A stretch of 64,000 nucleotides of DNA from Candidatus Liptonbacteria bacterium (GCA_023244895.1 JAHFLL010000001.1:163-64162), one strand, 5' to 3'. Shown: positions 4,064-35,777, numbered from the stretch's first letter. The notes: generated by a model from the letters alone, not told the origin. Numbers and translations: made by a program.

Positions 4064-5281
4064 TTAGGGTAGGTTGAAGCTCTTTAGAATCGCGTCGCTT
4101 GCAACCGAAAAAGATTCAGTCCTGTTTTGCTGAGAGTTGTTACTGGAATACGAAGCTACTAGACCCACGATGTATCCCCTCCAGAAAAGAGGCGAACCGG
4201 AACGTCCGCGATATATTTCCATATTGGTCGCGATAACGAGTGGTGTGCTCGCATAGTAAACGTCTCCCACATAAACCTCCTTAACGTTTCCTAAGCTACC
4301 CGAGAGGTACATAGTGGAGAAAGAATCGTTGCGCGCCGCGCCAATATCTCCCGGGAAGCCAAAGGTAATAACCTGCTGGCCGGGTGGCATAACTCCGTTG
4401 ATGGGAATAATTTTCGCGTATGGGAACGAGGCGGGCACGCTACTGTATCCGAAGGTAGGACCATCCGCCGAGACACCGTTTATTTTGAGCAGAGCGAAGT
4501 CCGCGTATTGTTTTTCCAGGTCCGACAATCCCACGCTGAGAGAAATTTTTTCCACGCTCGCGGTGTAGGGCAAGACCGTAACCATCACCAAGGGATTAAC
4601 CGCGCGTATCTCATCCGGCGTAGGCAGGGTGGTGTTGGGCGGTACCACGCCTACCAGGCACTGTTTCAGGGAATAGGTAAAATTTCCGGACACATTACTT
4701 CCGTCTATGATCGTGCTTTGTATTCCACCCTCTTTTTTAACAACGTGCCGATTGGTTAATATTTTGCCATCCGCGGAAACAATCACGCCCGAGCCCTTGG
4801 ATTCCACCTCTCCTTGCGCGATAAGTTTGTCCGAAACCTGGTCCTTAATTGTGAGATCGAATTTGCATAATAACCCAACCACAGTTTGATGATTAATGGC
4901 AATTTCGGGAGGTAGTTTGGGAGTAGCATTCTCGGGAGTGCTGGTAGGGCTCACCAATTTATTTTCCGGTAAAACGGGAACCTCTATTTTCTCCGGGACA
5001 ACTATTTTGGGCGGGGCTTGTTTGGCGGTAGTTGTAGCGGGAATATTATTTACGGGGGCGCTAGGTGTGCTAGTGGTAGTGCTGGTGAAAATAGGTTTTT
5101 CCACCTCGCTTCCCCTCTCCTCTTCCGTGGTTGTACTCGCGTTGTTTTGTGCGACCACTTCAGTTTGTTGCGCGGGCGCACTCTCAATTGGGATCTTTTT
5201 CTGAATTATTAAAACATAGCCCAACGCGACCACAATTGCGCCAGCTAGTAGAAAAGAAATTATTTTTTCCCAGATAAGCAT
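4064..5281 (-). CDS. membrane-anchored trypsin-like (S1/HtrA-like) serine protease
   Basis: The protein has an N-terminal TM helix, a Thr/Ser/Pro-rich linker, GSGVIVSADGKILTNRHVV (His region) and GRSGSPLF (Ser nucleophile region). Confidence 0.7.
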   Translation of the reverse strand: MLIWEKIISFLLAGAIVVALGYVLIIQKKIPIESAPAQQTEVVAQNNASTTTEEERGSEVEKPIFTSTTTSTPSAPVNNIPATTTAKQAPPKIVVPEKIEVPVLPENKLVSPTSTPENATPKLPPEIAINHQTVVGLLCKFDLTIKDQVSDKLIAQGEVESKGSGVIVSADGKILTNRHVVKKEGGIQSTIIDGSNVSGNFTYSLKQCLVGVVPPNTTLPTPDEIRAVNPLVMVTVLPYTASVEKISLSVGLSDLEKQYADFALLKINGVSADGPTFGYSSVPASFPYAKIIPINGVMPPGQQVITFGFPGDIGAARNDSFSTMYLSGSLGNVKEVYVGDVYYASTPLVIATNMEIYRGRSGSPLFWRGYIVGLVASYSSNNSQQNRTESFSVASDAILKSFNLP

Positions 5282-5357: not shown

Positions 5358-7127
5358 ATGAATAGCCAGAGTAAGCAGTGTCAGAATTGTAAATCCGATT
5401 TTACTATTGAATCCGAGGACTTTGCATTTTACGAGCGCATAAAGGTCCCCCCTCCGACCTTCTGTCCGGATTGTCGCCGGCAACGGCGCATGGCATGGCG
5501 TAACGAGAGGTCAATTTATCGCGCAAGTTGTTGTTTGTGCGGAAAAGCGATACTGACAATGTATCCCGAAGAATCGGGCGTGCAGTCTACCTGCCGGGAA
5601 TGTTGGTGGTCCGACTCCTGGGACCCCTTAAGTTATGGCGCGGACTATAATCCGGATAAAACTTTTTTCGCGCAGTTTTCTGAACTTGCCAAAAGGGCGC
5701 CGAGCCTGGCGCTATCCAATGTTGATTGCGTGGACAGCGACTACAGTAATTTCACCGCCTATAATAAAAATTGCTACCTGGTGTTCGGTAGCGGTTTTAA
5801 TGAGAACGTTCGGTATAGTAGGGCCTTGCGGTGCAGGGACTCCCAGGACTTGTTCGTGGGTAACAGCTGTGAGCTGTGTTACGAGTGTACGAATTGCTCC
5901 GATTCATACCGCCTGCTTTTTAGCTACAATTCCGAGAATTGTTCCGATTCCTATTTCTTATATAACTGCAGAAATTGTTCAAATTGTCTGGGCTGCATTA
6001 ATTTAGTCGATAAGTCCTATTGTATTTTCAATCAGCAATATAGCAAAGAAGAATATTCAAAAAAGATTGCGGAGTTGGAGCTCGGCAAATATTCGAGCCT
6101 GTTGAATCTGGAGGATAAGATTAAAAAAGAAGTGGTTTTAAAAGGGATACATAAATTCGCGAATATAGTGGCTTCTTCCCAGACAACCGGGGACAACATA
6201 AGGAATTCCCAAAATTGTCATTTCTGCTTCGATACTCTGGAAGATGTGCAAAATTGCAAATACTTGTATTACTGTACCGAACTTAAAGATTCTTATGATG
6301 GGATAGGTCAGTATAGGATGGAATTAGGGTACGAGAACGTGGACTGCAATGTAAGTAGCTCCGTCTTGGGTGGAATAACCATATACGACTCCAATAACAT
6401 TAGGTATTCCAAGAACTGCCACAACTGCAGTAATCTATTCGGTTGCGTTAACTTACGTAAAAAACAGTATTGTATTTTAAACAAGCAATATTCCAAAGAA
6501 GAATATGAACGGTTGATTTCTGAAATAATCGGGCAGATGAACTCCAATCCGTATTTGGATTCGAAAGGAAGAAAGCACGCTTATGGAGATTTCTATCCTA
6601 TTGAGCTGTCGCCATTTCCCTATAACCAAACCATAGCCCAGGAATACGCATTTCTGGATAAGGGTCTCGCATTAACCAATGGATACAAGTGGGAAGAACA
6701 TAACGATAAAAACTACGAGACAGATCTAACCTCCCTGGACTTACCGGATACCATAGCGGACGTTTCCGATAAGATTCTAAACCAGGTAATACAATGCGAG
6801 CATCTAGGGACCTGTGGTGAGCAATGCACTACCGCTTTTAAGATAATACCAGGGGAACTTCAGTTTTATAGAAAAATGAACTTACCCCTTCCTCGACTTT
6901 GTCACAATTGCCGCCACTACAAGAGGTTGAGGCAGCGTAATCCTCTTAAGCTCTGGTCTCGCAAGTGCCAGTGCGCAGGCCAAAAATCGGAGAATGGAAT
7001 TTATCAAAACACCATTGCTCACCCCCATGGCACGGATCGCTGCTCCAACGAATTCCAAACTTCTTATTCTCCCGACCGTCCGGAGATTGTGTATTGTGAA
7101 AATTGTTATCAAGCAGAAATCGTTTAG
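5358..7127 (+). CDS. cysteine-rich tandem-repeat protein (about 55 Cys; CxxC/NCxNC modules), function unknown
   Basis: The 589-aa ORF is divergent from the protease gene. It has an internal duplication in which both halves end ...NCxNCSNLxGCxNLxxKxYCIxNxQYSKEEY. The N- and C-terminal zinc-ribbon-like CxxC...CxxC segments mirror each other. There is no signal peptide. Confidence 0.65.
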   Translation: MNSQSKQCQNCKSDFTIESEDFAFYERIKVPPPTFCPDCRRQRRMAWRNERSIYRASCCLCGKAILTMYPEESGVQSTCRECWWSDSWDPLSYGADYNPDKTFFAQFSELAKRAPSLALSNVDCVDSDYSNFTAYNKNCYLVFGSGFNENVRYSRALRCRDSQDLFVGNSCELCYECTNCSDSYRLLFSYNSENCSDSYFLYNCRNCSNCLGCINLVDKSYCIFNQQYSKEEYSKKIAELELGKYSSLLNLEDKIKKEVVLKGIHKFANIVASSQTTGDNIRNSQNCHFCFDTLEDVQNCKYLYYCTELKDSYDGIGQYRMELGYENVDCNVSSSVLGGITIYDSNNIRYSKNCHNCSNLFGCVNLRKKQYCILNKQYSKEEYERLISEIIGQMNSNPYLDSKGRKHAYGDFYPIELSPFPYNQTIAQEYAFLDKGLALTNGYKWEEHNDKNYETDLTSLDLPDTIADVSDKILNQVIQCEHLGTCGEQCTTAFKIIPGELQFYRKMNLPLPRLCHNCRHYKRLRQRNPLKLWSRKCQCAGQKSENGIYQNTIAHPHGTDRCSNEFQTSYSPDRPEIVYCENCYQAEIV

Positions 7128-7191: not shown

Positions 7192-8721
7192 TTATTCTTC
7201 TCGTAAACGATAACTAAACGCTTCTGCCAAGTGTCCCGCGGAGACTTTTTCTTTTTCTTCCAGGTCCGCGATGGTTTGCGCAGTTTTGAGTAAGCGATAA
7301 TATCCGCGCGGAGATAATTTCGCCTTAGCTAGATTATCCATAAACTTCTGCGCTTCTAATTCTAATTCGATTAATTCTTCGGCCTGGCGGGAACTCATTT
7401 CGGAGTTGGTGGAAATTTTTAATCCCTTTTTGTTAAACCTCTCGCGTTGTTTAGAGCGCGCCTTCTCCACTTTGTCTTTTATCCCCGGACTGGTTTTTTG
7501 CTCCTCCGGCTTTTTGCGTAGCTCATCGTATTCCACCCGCAGAACTTTAAGCTGTAAATCAATTCTATCCATAAGGGGCCCCGAAATCTTTTTCTGATAA
7601 CGCACTACTTCATACGCGGAACACTTGCACTCTTTTTCCGGGTCGTTGTAGTAGCCACAGGGACAGGGATTCATAGCGGTTATAAGTGAAAATTTGGCGG
7701 GCAGAATTAGTGTGCCCTTGGCGCGCGCGATATGTACTAGCCCGCTCTCCAATGGCTGTCTTAGAGATTCTAAAATATTTTTTGGAAACTCCGGCAGTTC
7801 GTCTAGAAACAGAACTCCCCTATGAGCCAAGCTTATCTCGCCCGGACGCGGCACATTGCCTCCACCCACGACAGATATTAAAGACGCGGTCTGGTGCGGC
7901 GCGCGGAATGGTCGTTCATTAATTAGTCCGCCGGGATTAAGTCCCGCGGCACTATATATTTTCGTAACCTCAATCGCCTCTTCTCGGTCCGGTGCGGGCA
8001 GTATGCCGATTAAGGCTTGTGCCAGCAGGCTTTTACCGACTCCGGGCGGCCCCACCATAATCAGATTGTGCCCGCCCGCCGCCGCGATGATGAGCGCGCG
8101 CTTAGCGTGCTCCTGCCCTTTAATCTCCGAAAAGTCCGGCGCGCCCCTGCTCTCTCCCATGGCCTGCGAGAACACGGCAGGCTCCATTCTAATTCTCCCT
8201 TCTAATTCGCTCATTATCTCGGCCAAATCTTTCACTCCAAAGATTTCTACCCCCTCCACTACTGCCGCCTCGTTCGCGTTTTCTACCGGCAGATAAATTT
8301 TTTTGAAACCGGAGTTCTTCGCCATCTGCGCAATGCTTAAAACTCCGTTTACGGGTCGCAATCTGCCGTCCAAAGATAACTCGCCTAAAAATATTTTGTC
8401 TTTAGTTTCAAATTCCGAGATTTGTTTGGTGACCAAGAGATATGCCACAGCAATCGCGAGGTCATATTGCGAGCCGGTCTTTTTCACGTCCGCGGGCGCG
8501 AGATTGACCGTTATCTTTCTATTCTCGCGAGTCGGTGGTTTTACGCCCGCGTTCTTGAGCGCGGAGTTCACTCTTTCCTTCGCTTCATTCAAAGCCTTAT
8601 CCGCGAGTCCAACTATATTAAAAGAATGAAGGCCGACGTTTAAGTCGACCTCCACCTCAATCGGTCTCGCATGAATTCCTTCCAGTTCCGCGGAATAAAC
8701 TCTAGCGATCGTCTTGGACAT
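7192..8721 (-). CDS. comM: YifB/ComM family Mg-chelatase-like AAA+ ATPase
   Basis: The 509-aa ORF starts MSKTIARVYSAELEGIHARPIEVEVDL.... The central AAA+ Walker A is GPPGVGKS, and a C-terminal ChlI-like region is present. Confidence 0.85.
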   Translation of the reverse strand: MSKTIARVYSAELEGIHARPIEVEVDLNVGLHSFNIVGLADKALNEAKERVNSALKNAGVKPPTRENRKITVNLAPADVKKTGSQYDLAIAVAYLLVTKQISEFETKDKIFLGELSLDGRLRPVNGVLSIAQMAKNSGFKKIYLPVENANEAAVVEGVEIFGVKDLAEIMSELEGRIRMEPAVFSQAMGESRGAPDFSEIKGQEHAKRALIIAAAGGHNLIMVGPPGVGKSLLAQALIGILPAPDREEAIEVTKIYSAAGLNPGGLINERPFRAPHQTASLISVVGGGNVPRPGEISLAHRGVLFLDELPEFPKNILESLRQPLESGLVHIARAKGTLILPAKFSLITAMNPCPCGYYNDPEKECKCSAYEVVRYQKKISGPLMDRIDLQLKVLRVEYDELRKKPEEQKTSPGIKDKVEKARSKQRERFNKKGLKISTNSEMSSRQAEELIELELEAQKFMDNLAKAKLSPRGYYRLLKTAQTIADLEEKEKVSAGHLAEAFSYRLREE

Positions 8722-34634: not shown

Positions 34635-35777
34635 TTAGTTCCCGCGGCGAGGGAGGTCTTCCGCCGGGGCCGCCGGGGCCGCGGGCGGTTCGGCCGGAGG
34701 CTGTGCCTGGGCAGCCGCCTCTTCCGCTTCGGCTTGCCGCCGAAGCTCTTCAACTGGGTCGCCCTCCGGCCCGGCGATCGTCGCGGGCGCCGCGGGCGTC
34801 GCGGGCGCCGAGTCGGGTCCGCCGAGGAGGCTCCGGACGTCCGGCGTCTGGGGCGTCGGGGCCACGGGCTGACGCGCCTTCCGGTAGAGCCAGGCGCATC
34901 CGACGAGCGCGACGAGGAGGAGGGCCAAGAAGATGTACCGCCACATGCTGGCGGAATCACGAGCGGCCTGGACATTCCCGACCTCCACGATGGAAGATTC
35001 GAGAACGACATCAGCATCCTTCGCCTTGCCGTCCTTGTCCTTCTCTGTCACGCCCAGCTTGAGAGCCAGGCGGTGGATGCCGGCGGTGAGCTTGTCGAGC
35101 AAGCTCCCGAGTTCCAGCGCCTTCTTCTCGGCCCTCTCCTTGTCGTTCTTGAGGGTCTCGCTCTTGGCTGCCACGGCGTCGATTGCATCCACGAGCGACG
35201 TGTCCTTGTCGACCTTGGCCCCCACCACCTCCGCAGCCTTCTTGGCGGCGACGGTGGCGTCCGCGATGATCTTGTCGCGCTTGGCGATGCCGCTGCGCAG
35301 TCCTGCGCGGTCGCGCTCGGCCCGATGCTGATAGGCCGAGAGAGCAGCCATCACCTCGTCGGCGTTGGCGGGCGCCTGGGCGCCACAGGTCGTCGGAACG
35401 TCGATGTTGATCGGCGTACGGACAATGGCGTCCGCGTCCAGTTTCGCGACGCGGAGCGCCGACGAGAGCCACGACGGGTGGCATTTGGCGGCTGTCAGCG
35501 CCTGATAGACGCGGAGTTCGGCGTTGCCGACCTTCACGACGATGCGTGTGCTTCCCGTCGCCGTCGCCGGGATGATCACGGGGGTCGGCGCCGTCGCCGA
35601 CGAGGTCGTGGTCATCTGCGAGGCTGCCTTGGGGGCATCCTGGTCGCAGGCCACCGTGAGCATGATCGGCTGGCCGCACTTGGCCTTGATCGTCGAAGCG
35701 TCCTGCGCGACCACGGGGGTGGCGCAGAGAGCGAGAACGCAGAGAGCGAGAACGCAGAGAGCGAGCTTCTTCGCCAT
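34635..35777 (-). CDS. secreted/membrane-anchored coiled-coil protein on high-GC island (Pro/Ala-rich C-terminal tail)
   Basis: The signal peptide is MAKKLALCVLALCVLALCATPVVAQ. A long helical Lys/Ala/Asp-rich region, a C-terminal TM helix (WRYIFLALLLVALVGCAWLY) and a PAAPA-rich tail follow. Local GC is about 66-70%, so several overlapping ORFs on both strands are spurious. Confidence 0.5.
   Translation of the reverse strand: MAKKLALCVLALCVLALCATPVVAQDASTIKAKCGQPIMLTVACDQDAPKAASQMTTTSSATAPTPVIIPATATGSTRIVVKVGNAELRVYQALTAAKCHPSWLSSALRVAKLDADAIVRTPINIDVPTTCGAQAPANADEVMAALSAYQHRAERDRAGLRSGIAKRDKIIADATVAAKKAAEVVGAKVDKDTSLVDAIDAVAAKSETLKNDKERAEKKALELGSLLDKLTAGIHRLALKLGVTEKDKDGKAKDADVVLESSIVEVGNVQAARDSASMWRYIFLALLLVALVGCAWLYRKARQPVAPTPQTPDVRSLLGGPDSAPATPAAPATIAGPEGDPVEELRRQAEAEEAAAQAQPPAEPPAAPAAPAEDLPRRGN
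35724..35765. repeat. 15-bp tandem repeat x2.8 (gcagagagcgagaac) encoding ALCVL repeats in the signal peptide
   Basis: I read the repeat directly from the sequence. Confidence 0.8.

What the first reader, a model, noticed from the sequence alone, without database searches (positions are those of the whole stretch)
5358..7127. 589-aa cysteine-rich tandem-repeat protein with mirrored zinc-ribbon-like termini
The protein has about 55 cysteines and no signal peptide. Its N-terminal segment (CQNCKSDF...FYERIKVPPPTFCPDCRRQRRMAWRNERSIYRASCCLCG) and C-terminal segment (CEHLGTCGEQC...FYRKMNLPLPRLCHNCRHYKRLRQRNPLKLWSRKCQCAG) mirror each other. The middle consists of two duplicated halves, each made of about 6-7 degenerate 20-22-aa units of the type NCxxSxxSYxL. 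Both halves end in the nearly identical block NCxNCSNL(F/L)GC(I/V)NL..K.YCI.N.QYSKEEY. I cannot assign it to a known family from memory. It could be a polyvalent Zn-binding scaffold or a nucleic-acid-binding protein. It sits divergently next to a membrane serine protease and upstream of comM.
Basis: seen in the sequence. Interest (0 to 1): 0.55.

Follow-up and report, generated by a model that had tools for sequence, protein, structure and literature searches.

The report
Undescribed zinc-ribbon repeat protein of Parcubacteria
This gene encodes a member of a very large but never-described protein family confined to ultra-small Parcubacteria (CPR) bacteria, built from zinc-binding end modules around a duplicated repeat domain of unknown fold, kept in several ancient copies per tiny genome and often encoded beside 'orphan' VirD4-like motor ATPases whose role in these bacteria is an open question.

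Summary
The ORF (5358-7127, +, 589 aa) is real, and most of the described anatomy holds. The protein is A-B-B'-X-A'. The two terminal modules are homologous (11-83 ~ 490-584, hhalign E 5e-11), and so are the two central halves (105-240 ~ 253-390, E 1.5e-21).

The terminal modules are sub-threshold relatives of the treble-clef zinc domains zf_Tbcl and CxxC-x17-CxxC (zf_Tbcl_2/TIGR04272). Their Cys sets co-vary all-or-none, as metal sites should. The repeat cysteines sit on a strict every-third-residue register, swap with Ser/Leu/Val and barely co-vary, so they are core-ladder residues rather than ligands.

Nothing in Pfam, NCBIfam, PHROGs, PADLOC, PDB, phages, plasmids or IMG/VR reaches a curated threshold or significance. 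The family has 4,819 clusters at 50% identity, all named members being Parcubacteria. It forms tandem arrays of ancient paralogues. Its only recurrent operon partner is a mostly soluble VirD4/TrwB-like ATPase, some copies of which carry the same CxxC-x17-CxxC module.

Best hypothesis (about 0.4): a non-enzymatic multi-zinc adaptor or accessory of these orphan coupling-protein ATPases. The function is untested.

The parts
5358..7127 (+). Whole gene: 589-aa soluble Cys-rich protein with architecture A-B-B'-X-A'
   Evidence: ORF listing. An identical protein exists in public assemblies on an 840,672-bp contig. Full-length homologues of 50-59% identity are numerous. No TM helix or signal peptide.
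5358..5657 (+). N-terminal zinc module A (residues 1-100), followed by the conserved WWSDxWDP motif
   Evidence: Homologous to the C-module. AF2 pLDDT is 84-93.
5376..5489 (+). Zn site N1 (residues 7-44): C8, C11, C36, C39 with FYEK..VPxPTxCPxCR and an Arg-rich helix; zf_Tbcl-like treble clef
   Evidence: These Cys are 97% conserved in 144 copies. PF13451 E 0.0024, 18.2 bits, below GA 24. 12 of 33 members hit PF13451. BFVD zinc-ribbon matches with rmsd 0.6 A over 41-44 columns.
5529..5603 (+). Zn site N2 (residues 58-82): C58-x2-C61-x17-C79-x2-C82, an exact CxxC-x17-CxxC ribbon present in only about 30-50% of family members
   Evidence: C61/C79/C82 co-vary all-or-none (phi 0.97-0.99). An HMM of residues 45-100 hits the bona fide zf_Tbcl_2 ribbon of partner ATPases at E 1e-6 to 4e-6.
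5670..6077 (+). Repeat half B (residues 105-240): beta-rich domain with a Cys/Ser/Leu core position every third residue and a roughly 12-residue unit, ending in the cap NCRNCSNCLGCINLVDKSYCIFNQQYSKEEY and a helix
   Evidence: hhalign 105-240 ~ 253-390, E 1.5e-21. Periodicity at lags 3, 6, 9, 12 (z 6.7) and onward. 3n register and Cys/Ser/Leu exchange. AF2 domain model is beta-rich with strands starting every 12 residues.
6114..6527 (+). Repeat half B' (residues 253-390): second copy of the beta-rich domain, ending in NCHNCSNLFGCVNLRKKQYCILNKQYSKEEY and a helix
   Evidence: pLDDT 82-89 for this half in the domain model. C363 and C372 are >90% conserved; C357 is replaced by Ser in about half of the sequences.
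6546..6791 (+). Unique conserved domain X (residues 397-478): MPYxDxKGRxYxYGEFFPxELSPFxYNETIAQEYFPL...DLPDxIxDV; acidic (pI 4.5)
   Evidence: One of the most conserved regions. pLDDT 81-95. No fold or sequence match.
6792..7124 (+). C-terminal zinc module A' (residues 479-589): site C1 (C480/H482/C486/C490 + C515/C518) and site C2 (C537/C539/H555/H557/C562 + C580/C583); basic (pI 8.7)
   Evidence: Homologous to the N-module. Cys are 91-100% conserved. 490/515/518 co-vary at phi 0.95-0.98. Residues 561-586 hit PF23477 (E 0.0017) and TIGR04272 (E 0.0053), both below cut-off.
4064..5281 (-). Divergent neighbour: membrane-anchored Trypsin_2 serine protease (context only; not a conserved partner)
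   Evidence: Pfam PF13365 E 3.2e-12. Not recurrent in 80 related loci.
7192..8721 (-). Convergent neighbour: ComM/YifB-type Mg-chelatase-like AAA+ protein (context only; not a conserved partner)
   Evidence: Pfam Mg_chelatase 2e-89, ChlI, Mg_chelatase_C. Not recurrent in related loci.

Best explanation
The gene encodes a soluble cytoplasmic member of a large, ancient protein family known so far only from the Parcubacteria (Paceibacteria) branch of the CPR.

The protein is an internally duplicated, apparently non-enzymatic scaffold. At each end sits a double zinc module: a zf_Tbcl-like treble clef plus a CxxC-x17-CxxC-type ribbon, giving about 4-5 structural Zn per chain (inferred). Between them lie two copies of a beta-rich solenoid-like domain. 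The core of that domain is lined by a Cys/Ser/Leu residue at every third position, and its surface is the most variable part of the protein. A unique, highly conserved acidic domain X completes the centre.

The most likely mode of action is as an accessory or adaptor of the 'orphan', mostly soluble VirD4/TrwB-like (T4CP, HerA-FtsK superfamily) ATPases. These are the family's only recurrent operon partners.
- Shown: the gene linkage, and a zinc module shared between the two protein families.
- Inferred: the conserved zinc modules and domain X dock onto the ATPase, its long C-terminal tail or a common ligand, while the variable beta-rich domains of the different ancient paralogues give each copy its own target specificity (protein or nucleic acid).

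In this window the gene is a single copy with no ATPase nearby.
For: Anatomy:
- Duplications A~A' and B~B'.
- Zinc modules: sub-threshold but consistent hits to PF13451, PF23477 and TIGR04272, BFVD zinc-ribbon fold matches, all-or-none co-variation of the ligand sets, and zinc binding shown for CxxC-x17-CxxC proteins (PMC12704099).
- Non-enzymatic look: the invariant residues are Cys, Tyr/Phe/Trp, Pro, Gly and Asn, with no conserved catalytic-type constellation. This is an inference.

Family:
- More than 7,400 90%-identity clusters hit.
- 4,819 50%-identity clusters at E<=1e-3 and 2,164 at E<=1e-30.
- Named sources are all in the Parcubacteria group.

Paralogues:
- 50 of 80 loci hold 2-6 copies within +-6 kb.
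- All 54 adjacent F-F pairs are co-directional, median gap 28 nt.
- Only 2 of 110 copies have their closest relative in the same locus, so these are ancient subfamilies.
- A distinct 552-aa subfamily F2 exists.

ATPase link:
- 47 T4CP-like genes occur in 31 of 80 loci (19 of 40 fully flanked). 26 are immediately adjacent, always on the same strand, with gaps mostly 2-107 nt.
- They make up 7.6% of non-F ORFs in these neighbourhoods, and their presence rises with F copy number: 2/10, 7/15, 5/11, 5/5.
- Pfam on the ATPase: TrwB_AAD_bind 3e-15, TraG-D_C, T4SS-DNA_transf, DUF87.
- 13 of 47 ATPases carry a bona fide zf_Tbcl_2/TIGR04272 ribbon that is matched by HMMs built from F's own second ribbons.

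Literature:
- Patescibacteria hold 5,713 VirD4-like T4CPs in 2,918 genomes, and only 148 lie near virB4. The authors raise exaptation (PMC12102498).
- T4CPs normally act with auxiliary proteins bound to their C-terminal tail (PMC12857230).
Against: - No interaction, expression or phenotype data exist.
- About half of the fully flanked loci, and this window itself (64 kb), have no T4CP-like gene nearby.
- The within-locus permutation test for strict adjacency is only moderately significant: 26 observed vs 17.9 +- 2.7, and the maximum of 2,000 permutations was 28.
- ATPase-adjacent copies are not a distinct subfamily.
- There is no sequence or fold similarity to any known T4CP accessory protein.
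- The central-domain fold is not reliably modelled: pLDDT 55-67 in the full model and 76 in the domain model, with no significant Foldseek hit.
- Zinc stoichiometry is inferred, not measured.
- Sub-threshold HMM hits do not establish domain membership.
Confidence: 0.4

Rival explanations
1. The proteins are cargo rather than accessory. They would be a repertoire of signal-peptide-less effector or surface proteins that the VirD4-like coupling ATPase recognises (through the conserved terminal modules or the basic C-module) and hands to the Patescibacteria type IV secretion system, for delivery to or onto the host cell. The variable beta-rich domains would be the host-interacting part.
For: - Operonic linkage to T4CP-like ATPases.
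- No signal peptide.
- Several diversified paralogues, with the greatest variability in the beta-rich domains.
- Conserved termini and a basic C-terminal module (pI 8.7).
- T4SS is widespread and important in Patescibacteria (PMC12102498, PMC12857230).
Against: - Four or five tightly folded zinc sites per chain are awkward cargo for a T4SS, which moves unfolded substrates (general knowledge).
- The paralogues are ancient and 45-57% identical across orders, which is much slower evolution than typical effectors.
- The repeat Cys swap with Ser/Leu and do not co-vary in pairs, so there is no sign of extracellular disulfides.
- Most partner ATPases lack the N-terminal membrane anchor of canonical T4CPs (9 of 47 have one).
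- Only 148 of 5,713 Patescibacteria T4CPs lie near virB4.
- No T4SS genes were seen in the 80 neighbourhoods.
Confidence: 0.2
2. The protein is a stand-alone nucleic-acid-binding or regulatory zinc-finger protein, for example an RNA/DNA chaperone, a nucleoid or transcription factor, or a ribosome- or tRNA-associated factor specific to Parcubacteria. Its frequent position next to the ATPase would then reflect shared regulation or chance synteny, not a joint mechanism.
For: - Treble-clef or ribbon modules followed by conserved Arg-rich helices (CRRQRRMAWRNER and CRHYKRLRQRNP).
- One source labels a homologue 'Zn ribbon nucleic-acid-binding protein' (an automatic name).
- Neighbourhoods are housekeeping genes: aaRS, NusA, SmpB, RNase J, DnaJ.
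- This window and about half of the loci lack the ATPase.
Against: - The overall pI is 6.0, and three of the five regions are acidic.
- At 590 aa with two large beta-rich domains it is unlike known small zinc-ribbon nucleic-acid binders.
- Several ancient paralogues per roughly 0.8-Mb genome is unusual for a core translation or transcription factor.
- The ATPase enrichment (7.6% of neighbouring ORFs) and the shared zinc module need another explanation.
Confidence: 0.2
3. The ATPase plus Cys-rich protein pair is a conflict or defence module, with a HerA/FtsK-type ATPase and a sensor or effector directed against phages or mobile DNA.
For: - The ATPase gives weak hits to HerA and mad8 models in PADLOC (E 1.7e-10 to 1e-3).
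- Tandem diversified paralogues are seen in some immune loci.
Against: - The Cys-rich protein has no PADLOC hit.
- The family is vertically conserved with ancient paralogues, embedded among housekeeping genes, and absent from phages, plasmids and IMG/VR contigs.
- Defence systems are usually patchy and horizontally mobile.
- The ATPase hits are generic P-loop and HerA-superfamily similarity.
Confidence: 0.07
4. The protein is a metal- or redox-handling protein: a metallothionein-like store, an Fe-S scaffold using the CxxCxxCxxC block, or a thiol-based redox buffer.
For: - 7% Cys.
- A conserved C204-x2-C207-x2-C210-x2-C213 block.
Against: - Positions of that block are replaced one at a time by Leu, Ser or Ile (CCCC 64%, CCCs 21%, lCCC, ClCC; in half 2 CslC is the commonest form). 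phi <= 0.38, unlike the all-or-none terminal sites.
- All repeat Cys lie on a buried every-third-residue register shared with Val/Leu/Ile/Thr/Ala.
Confidence: 0.05

Closest known systems
zf_Tbcl (Pfam PF13451, 'probable treble clef domain')
   Same: - Two CxxC knuckles about 24 residues apart, with an F-Y-x-K...P-x-P-x-x-C-x-x-C-R signature and a basic helix after the second knuckle.
- Weak HMM hits in the query (E 0.0024, residues 7-44) and in 12 of 33 relatives.
- Local fold matches to phage 'putative zinc-ribbon domain' proteins.
   Different: - Scores are below the gathering threshold (18.2 vs 24 bits).
- Here the domain is paired with a second ribbon, and the pair is duplicated at both ends of a 590-aa multidomain protein.
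- The function of zf_Tbcl itself is unknown.
CxxC-x17-CxxC domain (NCBIfam TIGR04272 / Pfam PF23477 zf_Tbcl_2), e.g. the zinc-binding small proteins of Methanosarcina mazei
   Same: - Residues 58-82 have exactly CxxC-x17-CxxC.
- Residues 561-586 (C562-x17-C580-x2-C583, '...YAPDRPEIVYCExCY') hit both models weakly.
- F-derived HMMs recognise bona fide copies of the domain in the partner ATPases.
- Zinc binding is shown experimentally for this class (PMC12704099).
   Different: - Hits are below the curated cut-offs (18.5 vs 27 bits; 16.5 vs 36 bits).
- The C-terminal copy has only one Cys in its first knuckle, with extra CxC/HxH ligand candidates nearby.
- The N-terminal copy is missing in half or more of the family (about 50-70%, by data set).
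- The known members are small single-domain proteins.
Auxiliary subunits of type IV coupling-protein complexes (DotM/DotN/DotY/DotZ, IcmS-IcmW, TraM; 'D4Aux' proteins)
   Same: - Encoded next to, and proposed here to act with, a VirD4-type ATPase.
- Known auxiliaries bind the T4CP's long C-terminal tail (PMC12857230), and the long-form partner ATPases here have such a tail.
- DotN is, to my recollection, a zinc-binding protein (memory, not tested).
   Different: - No sequence or fold similarity.
- The partner ATPase is mostly soluble and not encoded near virB4.
- No interaction has been shown.
- The family is present as several ancient paralogues.
Beta-solenoid repeat proteins (right-handed parallel beta-helices; narrow 12-residue-per-coil beta-helix of the Tenebrio antifreeze type; pentapeptide-repeat proteins)
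   Same: - Beta-rich model with strands recurring every 12 residues.
- A ladder of small or hydrophobic core residues at fixed register.
- The weak Foldseek hits are almost all right-handed parallel beta-helices.
- The every-third-residue small core of the 12-residue antifreeze helix is a resemblance from memory only.
   Different: - No significant fold match (best E 0.38, TM about 0.1).
- The protein is cytoplasmic, with no disulfide-type co-variation.
- A period-3 core has no match in the libraries searched.
DnaJ cysteine-rich domain (CxxCxGxG repeats)
   Same: Cys-rich and zinc-binding. DnaJ genes lie near family members in 15 of 80 loci.
   Different: No Pfam hit to the DnaJ CR domain and no CxxCxGxG motif in the sequence. 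Different spacing and fold context. The DnaJ proximity is ordinary housekeeping synteny (6 adjacent cases).

Membership tests
Pfam PF13451 zf_Tbcl | HMM score at or above the gathering threshold (24 bits) | tested here: not met
   Query residues 1-100 score 18.2 bits, E 0.0024. 12 of 33 relatives have E<1, best 9.4e-4.
Pfam PF13451 zf_Tbcl | Two CxxC knuckles forming one 4-Cys site, conserved as a unit | tested here: met
   C8, C11, C36 and C39 are each 97% conserved in 144 copies. The equivalent C-module set 490/515/518 co-varies at phi 0.95-0.98.
Pfam PF13451 zf_Tbcl | Treble-clef / zinc-ribbon fold | tested here: inconclusive
   Local BFVD matches to 'putative zinc-ribbon domain' proteins: E 3.6e-4 with probability 1.0, and rmsd 0.6 A over 41-44 columns. 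No PDB match. Model coordinates could not be inspected.
NCBIfam TIGR04272 / Pfam PF23477 (CxxC-x17-CxxC, zf_Tbcl_2) | HMM score at or above the curated cut-off (36 and 27 bits) | tested here: not met
   Residues 527-589 score 16.5 bits (E 0.0053) and 18.5 bits (E 0.0017). The whole protein gives E 0.061.
NCBIfam TIGR04272 / Pfam PF23477 (CxxC-x17-CxxC, zf_Tbcl_2) | CxxC, 17 residues, CxxC | tested here: met
   C58-x2-C61-x17-C79-x2-C82 is read directly from the sequence. The C-terminal copy is partial (C562-x17-C580-x2-C583).
NCBIfam TIGR04272 / Pfam PF23477 (CxxC-x17-CxxC, zf_Tbcl_2) | Zinc binding | not testable with these tools
   Shown by ICP-MS for two M. mazei members (PMC12704099). Here it is inferred from ligand conservation and co-variation.
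VirD4/TrwB-type coupling protein (applies to the partner ATPase in related loci, not to the window gene) | P-loop NTPase with TrwB_AAD_bind / TraG-D_C / T4SS-DNA_transf domains above Pfam thresholds | tested here: met
   L024_4: TrwB_AAD_bind 56.4 bits (GA 20.5), TraG-D_C 27.5 (GA 22), T4SS-DNA_transf 23.3 (GA 20.1). L040_3 is similar.
VirD4/TrwB-type coupling protein (partner ATPase) | N-terminal transmembrane anchor | tested here: not met
   Only 9 of 47 copies have an N-terminal hydrophobic segment.
VirD4/TrwB-type coupling protein (partner ATPase) | Encoded with, or acting with, a VirB4-based T4SS or a relaxase | tested here: inconclusive
   No VirB4, relaxase or pilus genes were recognised among recurrent neighbours within +-6 kb (the smaller clusters were identified by eye only). 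The whole genomes were not examined. The literature reports that most Patescibacteria T4CPs are far from virB4.
DnaJ cysteine-rich zinc-finger domain | Four CxxCxGxG repeats / Pfam DnaJ_CXXCXGXG hit | tested here: not met
   No such Pfam hit at E<=10 for the query or at E<=1 for 33 relatives. The motif is absent from the sequence.
Known anti-phage defence proteins (PADLOC-DB) | HMM match to any defence-system component | tested here: not met
   0 families at E<=1 for the window protein.
Right-handed parallel beta-helix / beta-solenoid folds | Significant structural superposition on a solved beta-helix | tested here: not met
   The best Foldseek E is 0.38 with TM about 0.1-0.14 for the domain model. 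The hit list is dominated by beta-helices, but none is significant.

The most novel reading that the evidence does not exclude
The Cys-rich family and the 'orphan' soluble VirD4-like ATPases together form a previously unrecognised, Parcubacteria-wide ATP-driven machine that is independent of type IV secretion (an exapted coupling protein). In it, several ancient paralogues of a new multi-zinc adaptor each direct the motor to a different substrate. The adaptor's central domain would be a new kind of beta-solenoid whose core is a cysteine/serine ladder at every third residue.
Probability: 0.25. Interest if true: 0.78.

Novelty: new variant of a known kind. Interest (0 to 1): 0.6.

Why it matters
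Parcubacteria are among the most abundant uncultivated bacteria, and their genomes are tiny (about 0.8 Mb). Yet many of them keep two to six ancient copies of this 590-residue protein, which no database describes. That is more than 1% of coding capacity in some genomes, which implies an important lineage-specific function.

The family offers a concrete lead on an open question stated in the recent literature: what do the thousands of VirD4-like coupling ATPases of Patescibacteria do, given that they are not encoded with a type IV secretion system? The candidate partner named here can be expressed, metal-analysed and tested for binding.

The central domain may also be a new repeat fold, with a period-3 Cys/Ser core, for which no solved structure gives a match. 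Finally, the case is a caution: a high cysteine count does not mean a polyvalent metal binder.

Tried and rejected
- **Inteins or insertions.** Several related loci had match spans of 2.0-2.6 kb. tblastn showed these are adjacent full-length paralogues, not insertions.
- **comM synteny.** comM is convergent in the window and absent from the recurrent neighbours of 80 loci.
- **DnaJ-type Cys-rich repeats.** No hit.
- **Viral, plasmid or defence origin.** No tblastn hit in 50,697 phage or 72,556 plasmid records, none on IMG/VR contigs, and none in PADLOC or PHROGs.
- **Solved relatives.** Neither the single-sequence nor the profile search of PDB sequences gave a significant hit. The single-sequence search gave only chance-level hits (best E 0.066) and the profile search none. 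Foldseek against the PDB gave nothing significant for either the full model or the domain model.
- **Disulfide pairs or an Fe-S/Zn cluster in the repeats.** Rejected by the co-variation analysis.
- **HxH (H555-x-H557) as an HUH nuclease or relaxase motif.** The segment is deleted in 31% of copies and sits between Cys ligands, so it is more likely an extra zinc ligand pair.
- **A dedicated ATPase-partner subfamily.** Not found.
- **Short 20-22-aa repeats.** Not supported.
- **Promoter and terminator scan.** Nothing above shuffled expectation.
- **Literature.** Searches for PF13451/zf-trcl, Cys-rich CPR families and Paceibacteria expression data found nothing on this family.
- **Source organism name.** Not recoverable from the cluster records.
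Full report
**1. Observation**

The ORF 5358..7127 (+) exists exactly as reported (ATG start, 589 aa). It has 41 cysteines (7.0%), not about 55. No 19-residue window is hydrophobic enough for a signal peptide or TM helix (maximum 0.75).

The two end segments are homologous. BLASTP aligns 9-63 to 488-542 at 27% identity, z = 14 against shuffled sequence. A profile self-comparison of a 33-member family alignment extends this to 11-83 ~ 490-584 (E 5e-11, probability 97%). They are direct duplicates, not mirror images.

The centre is a duplication. Residues 136-240 align to 284-390 at 36% identity, E 5e-21, z = 17.6, and profile self-alignment gives 105-240 ~ 253-390 at E 1.5e-21. The architecture is therefore A-B-B'-X-A', where X (397-478) is a unique, highly conserved segment.

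The proposed 20-22-residue units are not supported. No short repeat is significant in the profile self-comparison (best E 0.0028). A column-profile autocorrelation over 144 family copies gives positive peaks at lags 3, 6, 9, 12, 15, 18, 21, 24, 27 and 33, strongest at 12 (z = 6.7). Lags 20 and 22 are negative or null.

The neighbours are a divergent membrane Trypsin_2 protease and a ComM/Mg-chelatase-like AAA+ gene. The latter is on the opposite strand and convergent, not downstream.

**2. What the parts are**

No curated family reaches its threshold in Pfam, NCBIfam, PHROGs or PADLOC. PDB sequences give no significant hit, whether searched with the single sequence (only chance-level hits, best E 0.066) or with the profile (none).

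Weak hits are nevertheless consistent.
- Residues 7-44 hit PF13451 zf_Tbcl (E 0.0024), and 12 of 33 relatives also hit it.
- Residues 561-586 hit PF23477 zf_Tbcl_2 and TIGR04272 'CxxC-x17-CxxC' (E 0.0017 and 0.0053).
- Residues 58-82 are literally CxxC-x17-CxxC.
- The only fold matches of the full AF2 model (pTM 0.80, pLDDT 78.8) are about 40-residue matches to phage 'putative zinc-ribbon domain' proteins. The PDB gives nothing.

Proteins of the CxxC-x17-CxxC class have been shown to bind zinc by ICP-MS (PMC12704099).

**3. Which cysteines are ligands**

In 144 full-length copies the terminal ligand sets are 91-100% conserved (C8/11/36/39; C480/490/515/518; C537/562/580/583).

In a 521-sequence alignment the sites that are lost in some subfamilies are lost as units. 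C61/C79/C82 co-vary at phi 0.97-0.99, and C490/C515/C518 at phi 0.95-0.98.

The repeat cysteines behave differently.
- The columns where Cys is variable fall on a strict 3n register (162, 165 ... 222; 339 ... 363).
- They exchange with Ser, and also with Val, Leu, Ile, Thr and Ala.
- They hardly co-vary (maximum phi 0.61).
- Even the conserved C204-x2-C207-x2-C210-x2-C213 block is substituted one position at a time (CCCC 64%, CCCs 21%, lCCC, ClCC). Its counterpart in half 2 is most often C-s-l-C.

These are buried ladder positions of a period-3 structure. They are not disulfide partners or a metal cluster. So roughly 20 Cys/His serve 4-5 zinc sites at the ends, and about 20 Cys line the repeat core.

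A second AF2 run on residues 100-401 used a deeper, more diverse alignment (103 sequences including the divergent F2 subfamily). It turns both halves beta-rich, with strands starting every 12 residues (pLDDT 76, pTM 0.71). Foldseek against the PDB returns only insignificant hits (best E 0.38, TM about 0.1). Nearly all are right-handed parallel beta-helices. The domain is solenoid-like, but its fold is unassigned.

**4. The family**

The word-indexed search found more than 7,400 clusters at 90% identity. All of the best 120 are full length, 50-59% identical and 'hypothetical'. The exhaustive profile search of 1.84 billion representatives found 4,819 clusters at E<=1e-3 and 2,164 at E<=1e-30, with a single architecture among the best 150.

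All informative source names lie in the Parcubacteria group: Nomura-, Lipton-, Staskawicz-, Giovannoni-, Sung-, Niyogi-, Jorgensen- and Brennerbacteria, and Paceibacterota/Minisyncoccia. Some generic MAG titles ('uncultured Candidatus Saccharibacteria', 'Gammaproteobacteria', 'Burkholderiales') should not be trusted.

The family is absent from phage and plasmid records and from IMG/VR contigs. No paper in the searchable library mentions it.

**5. Paralogue arrays**

Match spans longer than the gene first suggested inteins, but they are neighbouring copies. Of the 80 loci, 50 carry 2-6 copies within +-6 kb. All 54 adjacent pairs are co-directional, with a median spacer of 28 nt.

The copies are old. 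Only 2 of 110 copies in multi-copy loci have their nearest relative in the same locus (median identity 45% within a locus against 57% to another genome). A 552-aa subfamily F2, 33% identical to the window protein, is itself conserved at 56-77% across many lineages.

The window (64 kb) holds a single copy.

**6. Context**

Clustering all ORFs of the 80 loci gives one strongly recurrent neighbour: a P-loop ATPase of about 500 aa, with 47 copies in 31 loci (19 of 40 fully flanked loci). Pfam assigns it TrwB_AAD_bind, TraG-D_C, T4SS-DNA_transf and DUF87/HerA domains above threshold.
- 26 copies are immediately adjacent to a family member, always on the same strand, mostly 2-107 nt away and on either side.
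- The ATPase accounts for 7.6% of the non-family ORFs in these neighbourhoods.
- Its presence rises with family copy number (2/10, 7/15, 5/11, 5/5).
- A strict within-locus permutation gives 26 observed against 17.9 +- 2.7.
- Most copies lack an N-terminal membrane anchor.
- Thirteen long-form copies carry a bona fide CxxC-x17-CxxC/zf_Tbcl_2 ribbon (43-65 bits, above both cut-offs), followed by a long low-complexity tail. HMMs built from the Cys-rich protein's own second ribbons detect those ribbons (E 1e-6 and 2e-4 in a 47-sequence database).

The two families therefore share a zinc module as well as operons.

Other neighbours (DnaJ, MreB, aaRS, SecF, MurD and others) are ordinary housekeeping synteny. 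The window itself is housekeeping, with no T4SS or T4CP gene. ATPase-adjacent copies are spread over the family tree.

**7. Interpretation**

Quinonero-Coronel et al. (PMC12102498) counted 5,713 VirD4-like T4CPs in 2,918 Patescibacteria genomes. Only 148 lie near virB4, and the authors raised the possibility of exaptation. Canonical T4CPs work with auxiliary proteins that bind their C-terminal tails (PMC12857230).

The best-supported reading is that this family is an accessory or adaptor of those orphan ATPases. The conserved zinc modules and domain X would be the constant docking part, and the variable beta-rich halves the paralogue-specific recognition part. The gene linkage and the shared module are shown. 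Docking, specificity and any substrate are inferred. I put this at about 0.4.

The alternatives are:
- cargo or effector of the coupling protein (0.2), weakened by the many zinc folds, slow evolution and lack of disulfide signatures;
- an independent nucleic-acid-binding or regulatory protein (0.2), supported by Arg-rich helices and housekeeping contexts but weakened by the acidic bulk of the protein;
- a defence module (0.07);
- a metal or redox protein (0.05), contradicted by the substitution pattern.

**8. Novelty and verdict**

The end modules are divergent members of known but functionally uncharacterised zinc-domain classes. The central duplicated domain, domain X, the overall architecture, the ancient multi-copy arrays and the link to orphan T4CP-like ATPases are, as far as these libraries and the literature show, undescribed. 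I file it as a new variant built partly from known modules, not as a member of any family, because the HMM thresholds were tested and not met.

Interest is 0.6. This is a large, conserved, lineage-defining family in a poorly understood group of bacteria, with a testable tie to an acknowledged puzzle. No functional evidence exists yet, and the fold model is incomplete.

Noticed in passing
L050:2492-13998; L039:2323-13538; L003:3-6550; L024:6001-12856 (related loci): The family forms head-to-tail tandem arrays of up to six full-length, 30-50% identical paralogues in other Parcubacteria genomes. The copies are ancient: their nearest relatives lie in other genomes.
   Followed up: yes
L024:3901-5904; L058:8172-10586; L050:336-2408: These are long-form VirD4/TrwB-like ATPases without a membrane anchor. 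They carry a bona fide CxxC-x17-CxxC (zf_Tbcl_2/TIGR04272) ribbon followed by a 150-330-residue low-complexity P/S/K/E tail. The ATPases are themselves multi-copy and interleaved with the Cys-rich genes.
   Followed up: partly
L024:7753-9414 and 120 relatives (P0121-P0240): Subfamily F2 (about 552 aa) has lost the first zinc site of the C-terminal module as a unit (C490->T, C515->H, C518->W), yet is itself conserved at 56-77% identity. Separately, the family splits into two types at the second N-terminal ribbon: C4, or 'KCxAPGHxE...YDxxYWW'.
   Followed up: partly
window:10374-11606: There is a sharp G+C rise to 0.62 over about 1 kb (10.5-11.5 kb), against 0.39-0.47 in the flanking sequence. 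It covers a response-regulator ORF and a 200-aa ORF without a Pfam domain. This may be a foreign insertion or an assembly join.
   Followed up: no
window:27760-27834: A tRNA-Ile with anticodon UAU is present. This is uncommon in bacteria, which usually read AUA with a lysidine-modified CAU tRNA.
   Followed up: no
window:30782-34462 (-): A 1,226-aa ORF has no Pfam domain at E<=1e-5.
   Followed up: no
window:8735-9067 (-): A 110-aa acidic protein with a C-terminal CxxC...CxxC (DksA/TraR-like appearance, no Pfam hit at 1e-3) lies immediately upstream of comM on the same strand. A second protein with a true zf-dskA_traR domain lies about 7 kb further on (L081:15835-16251).
   Followed up: no
window:34566-35786 (+) and 34635-35777 (-): Two long ORFs (406 and 380 aa) overlap almost completely on opposite strands. 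Which strand codes was not determined.
   Followed up: no
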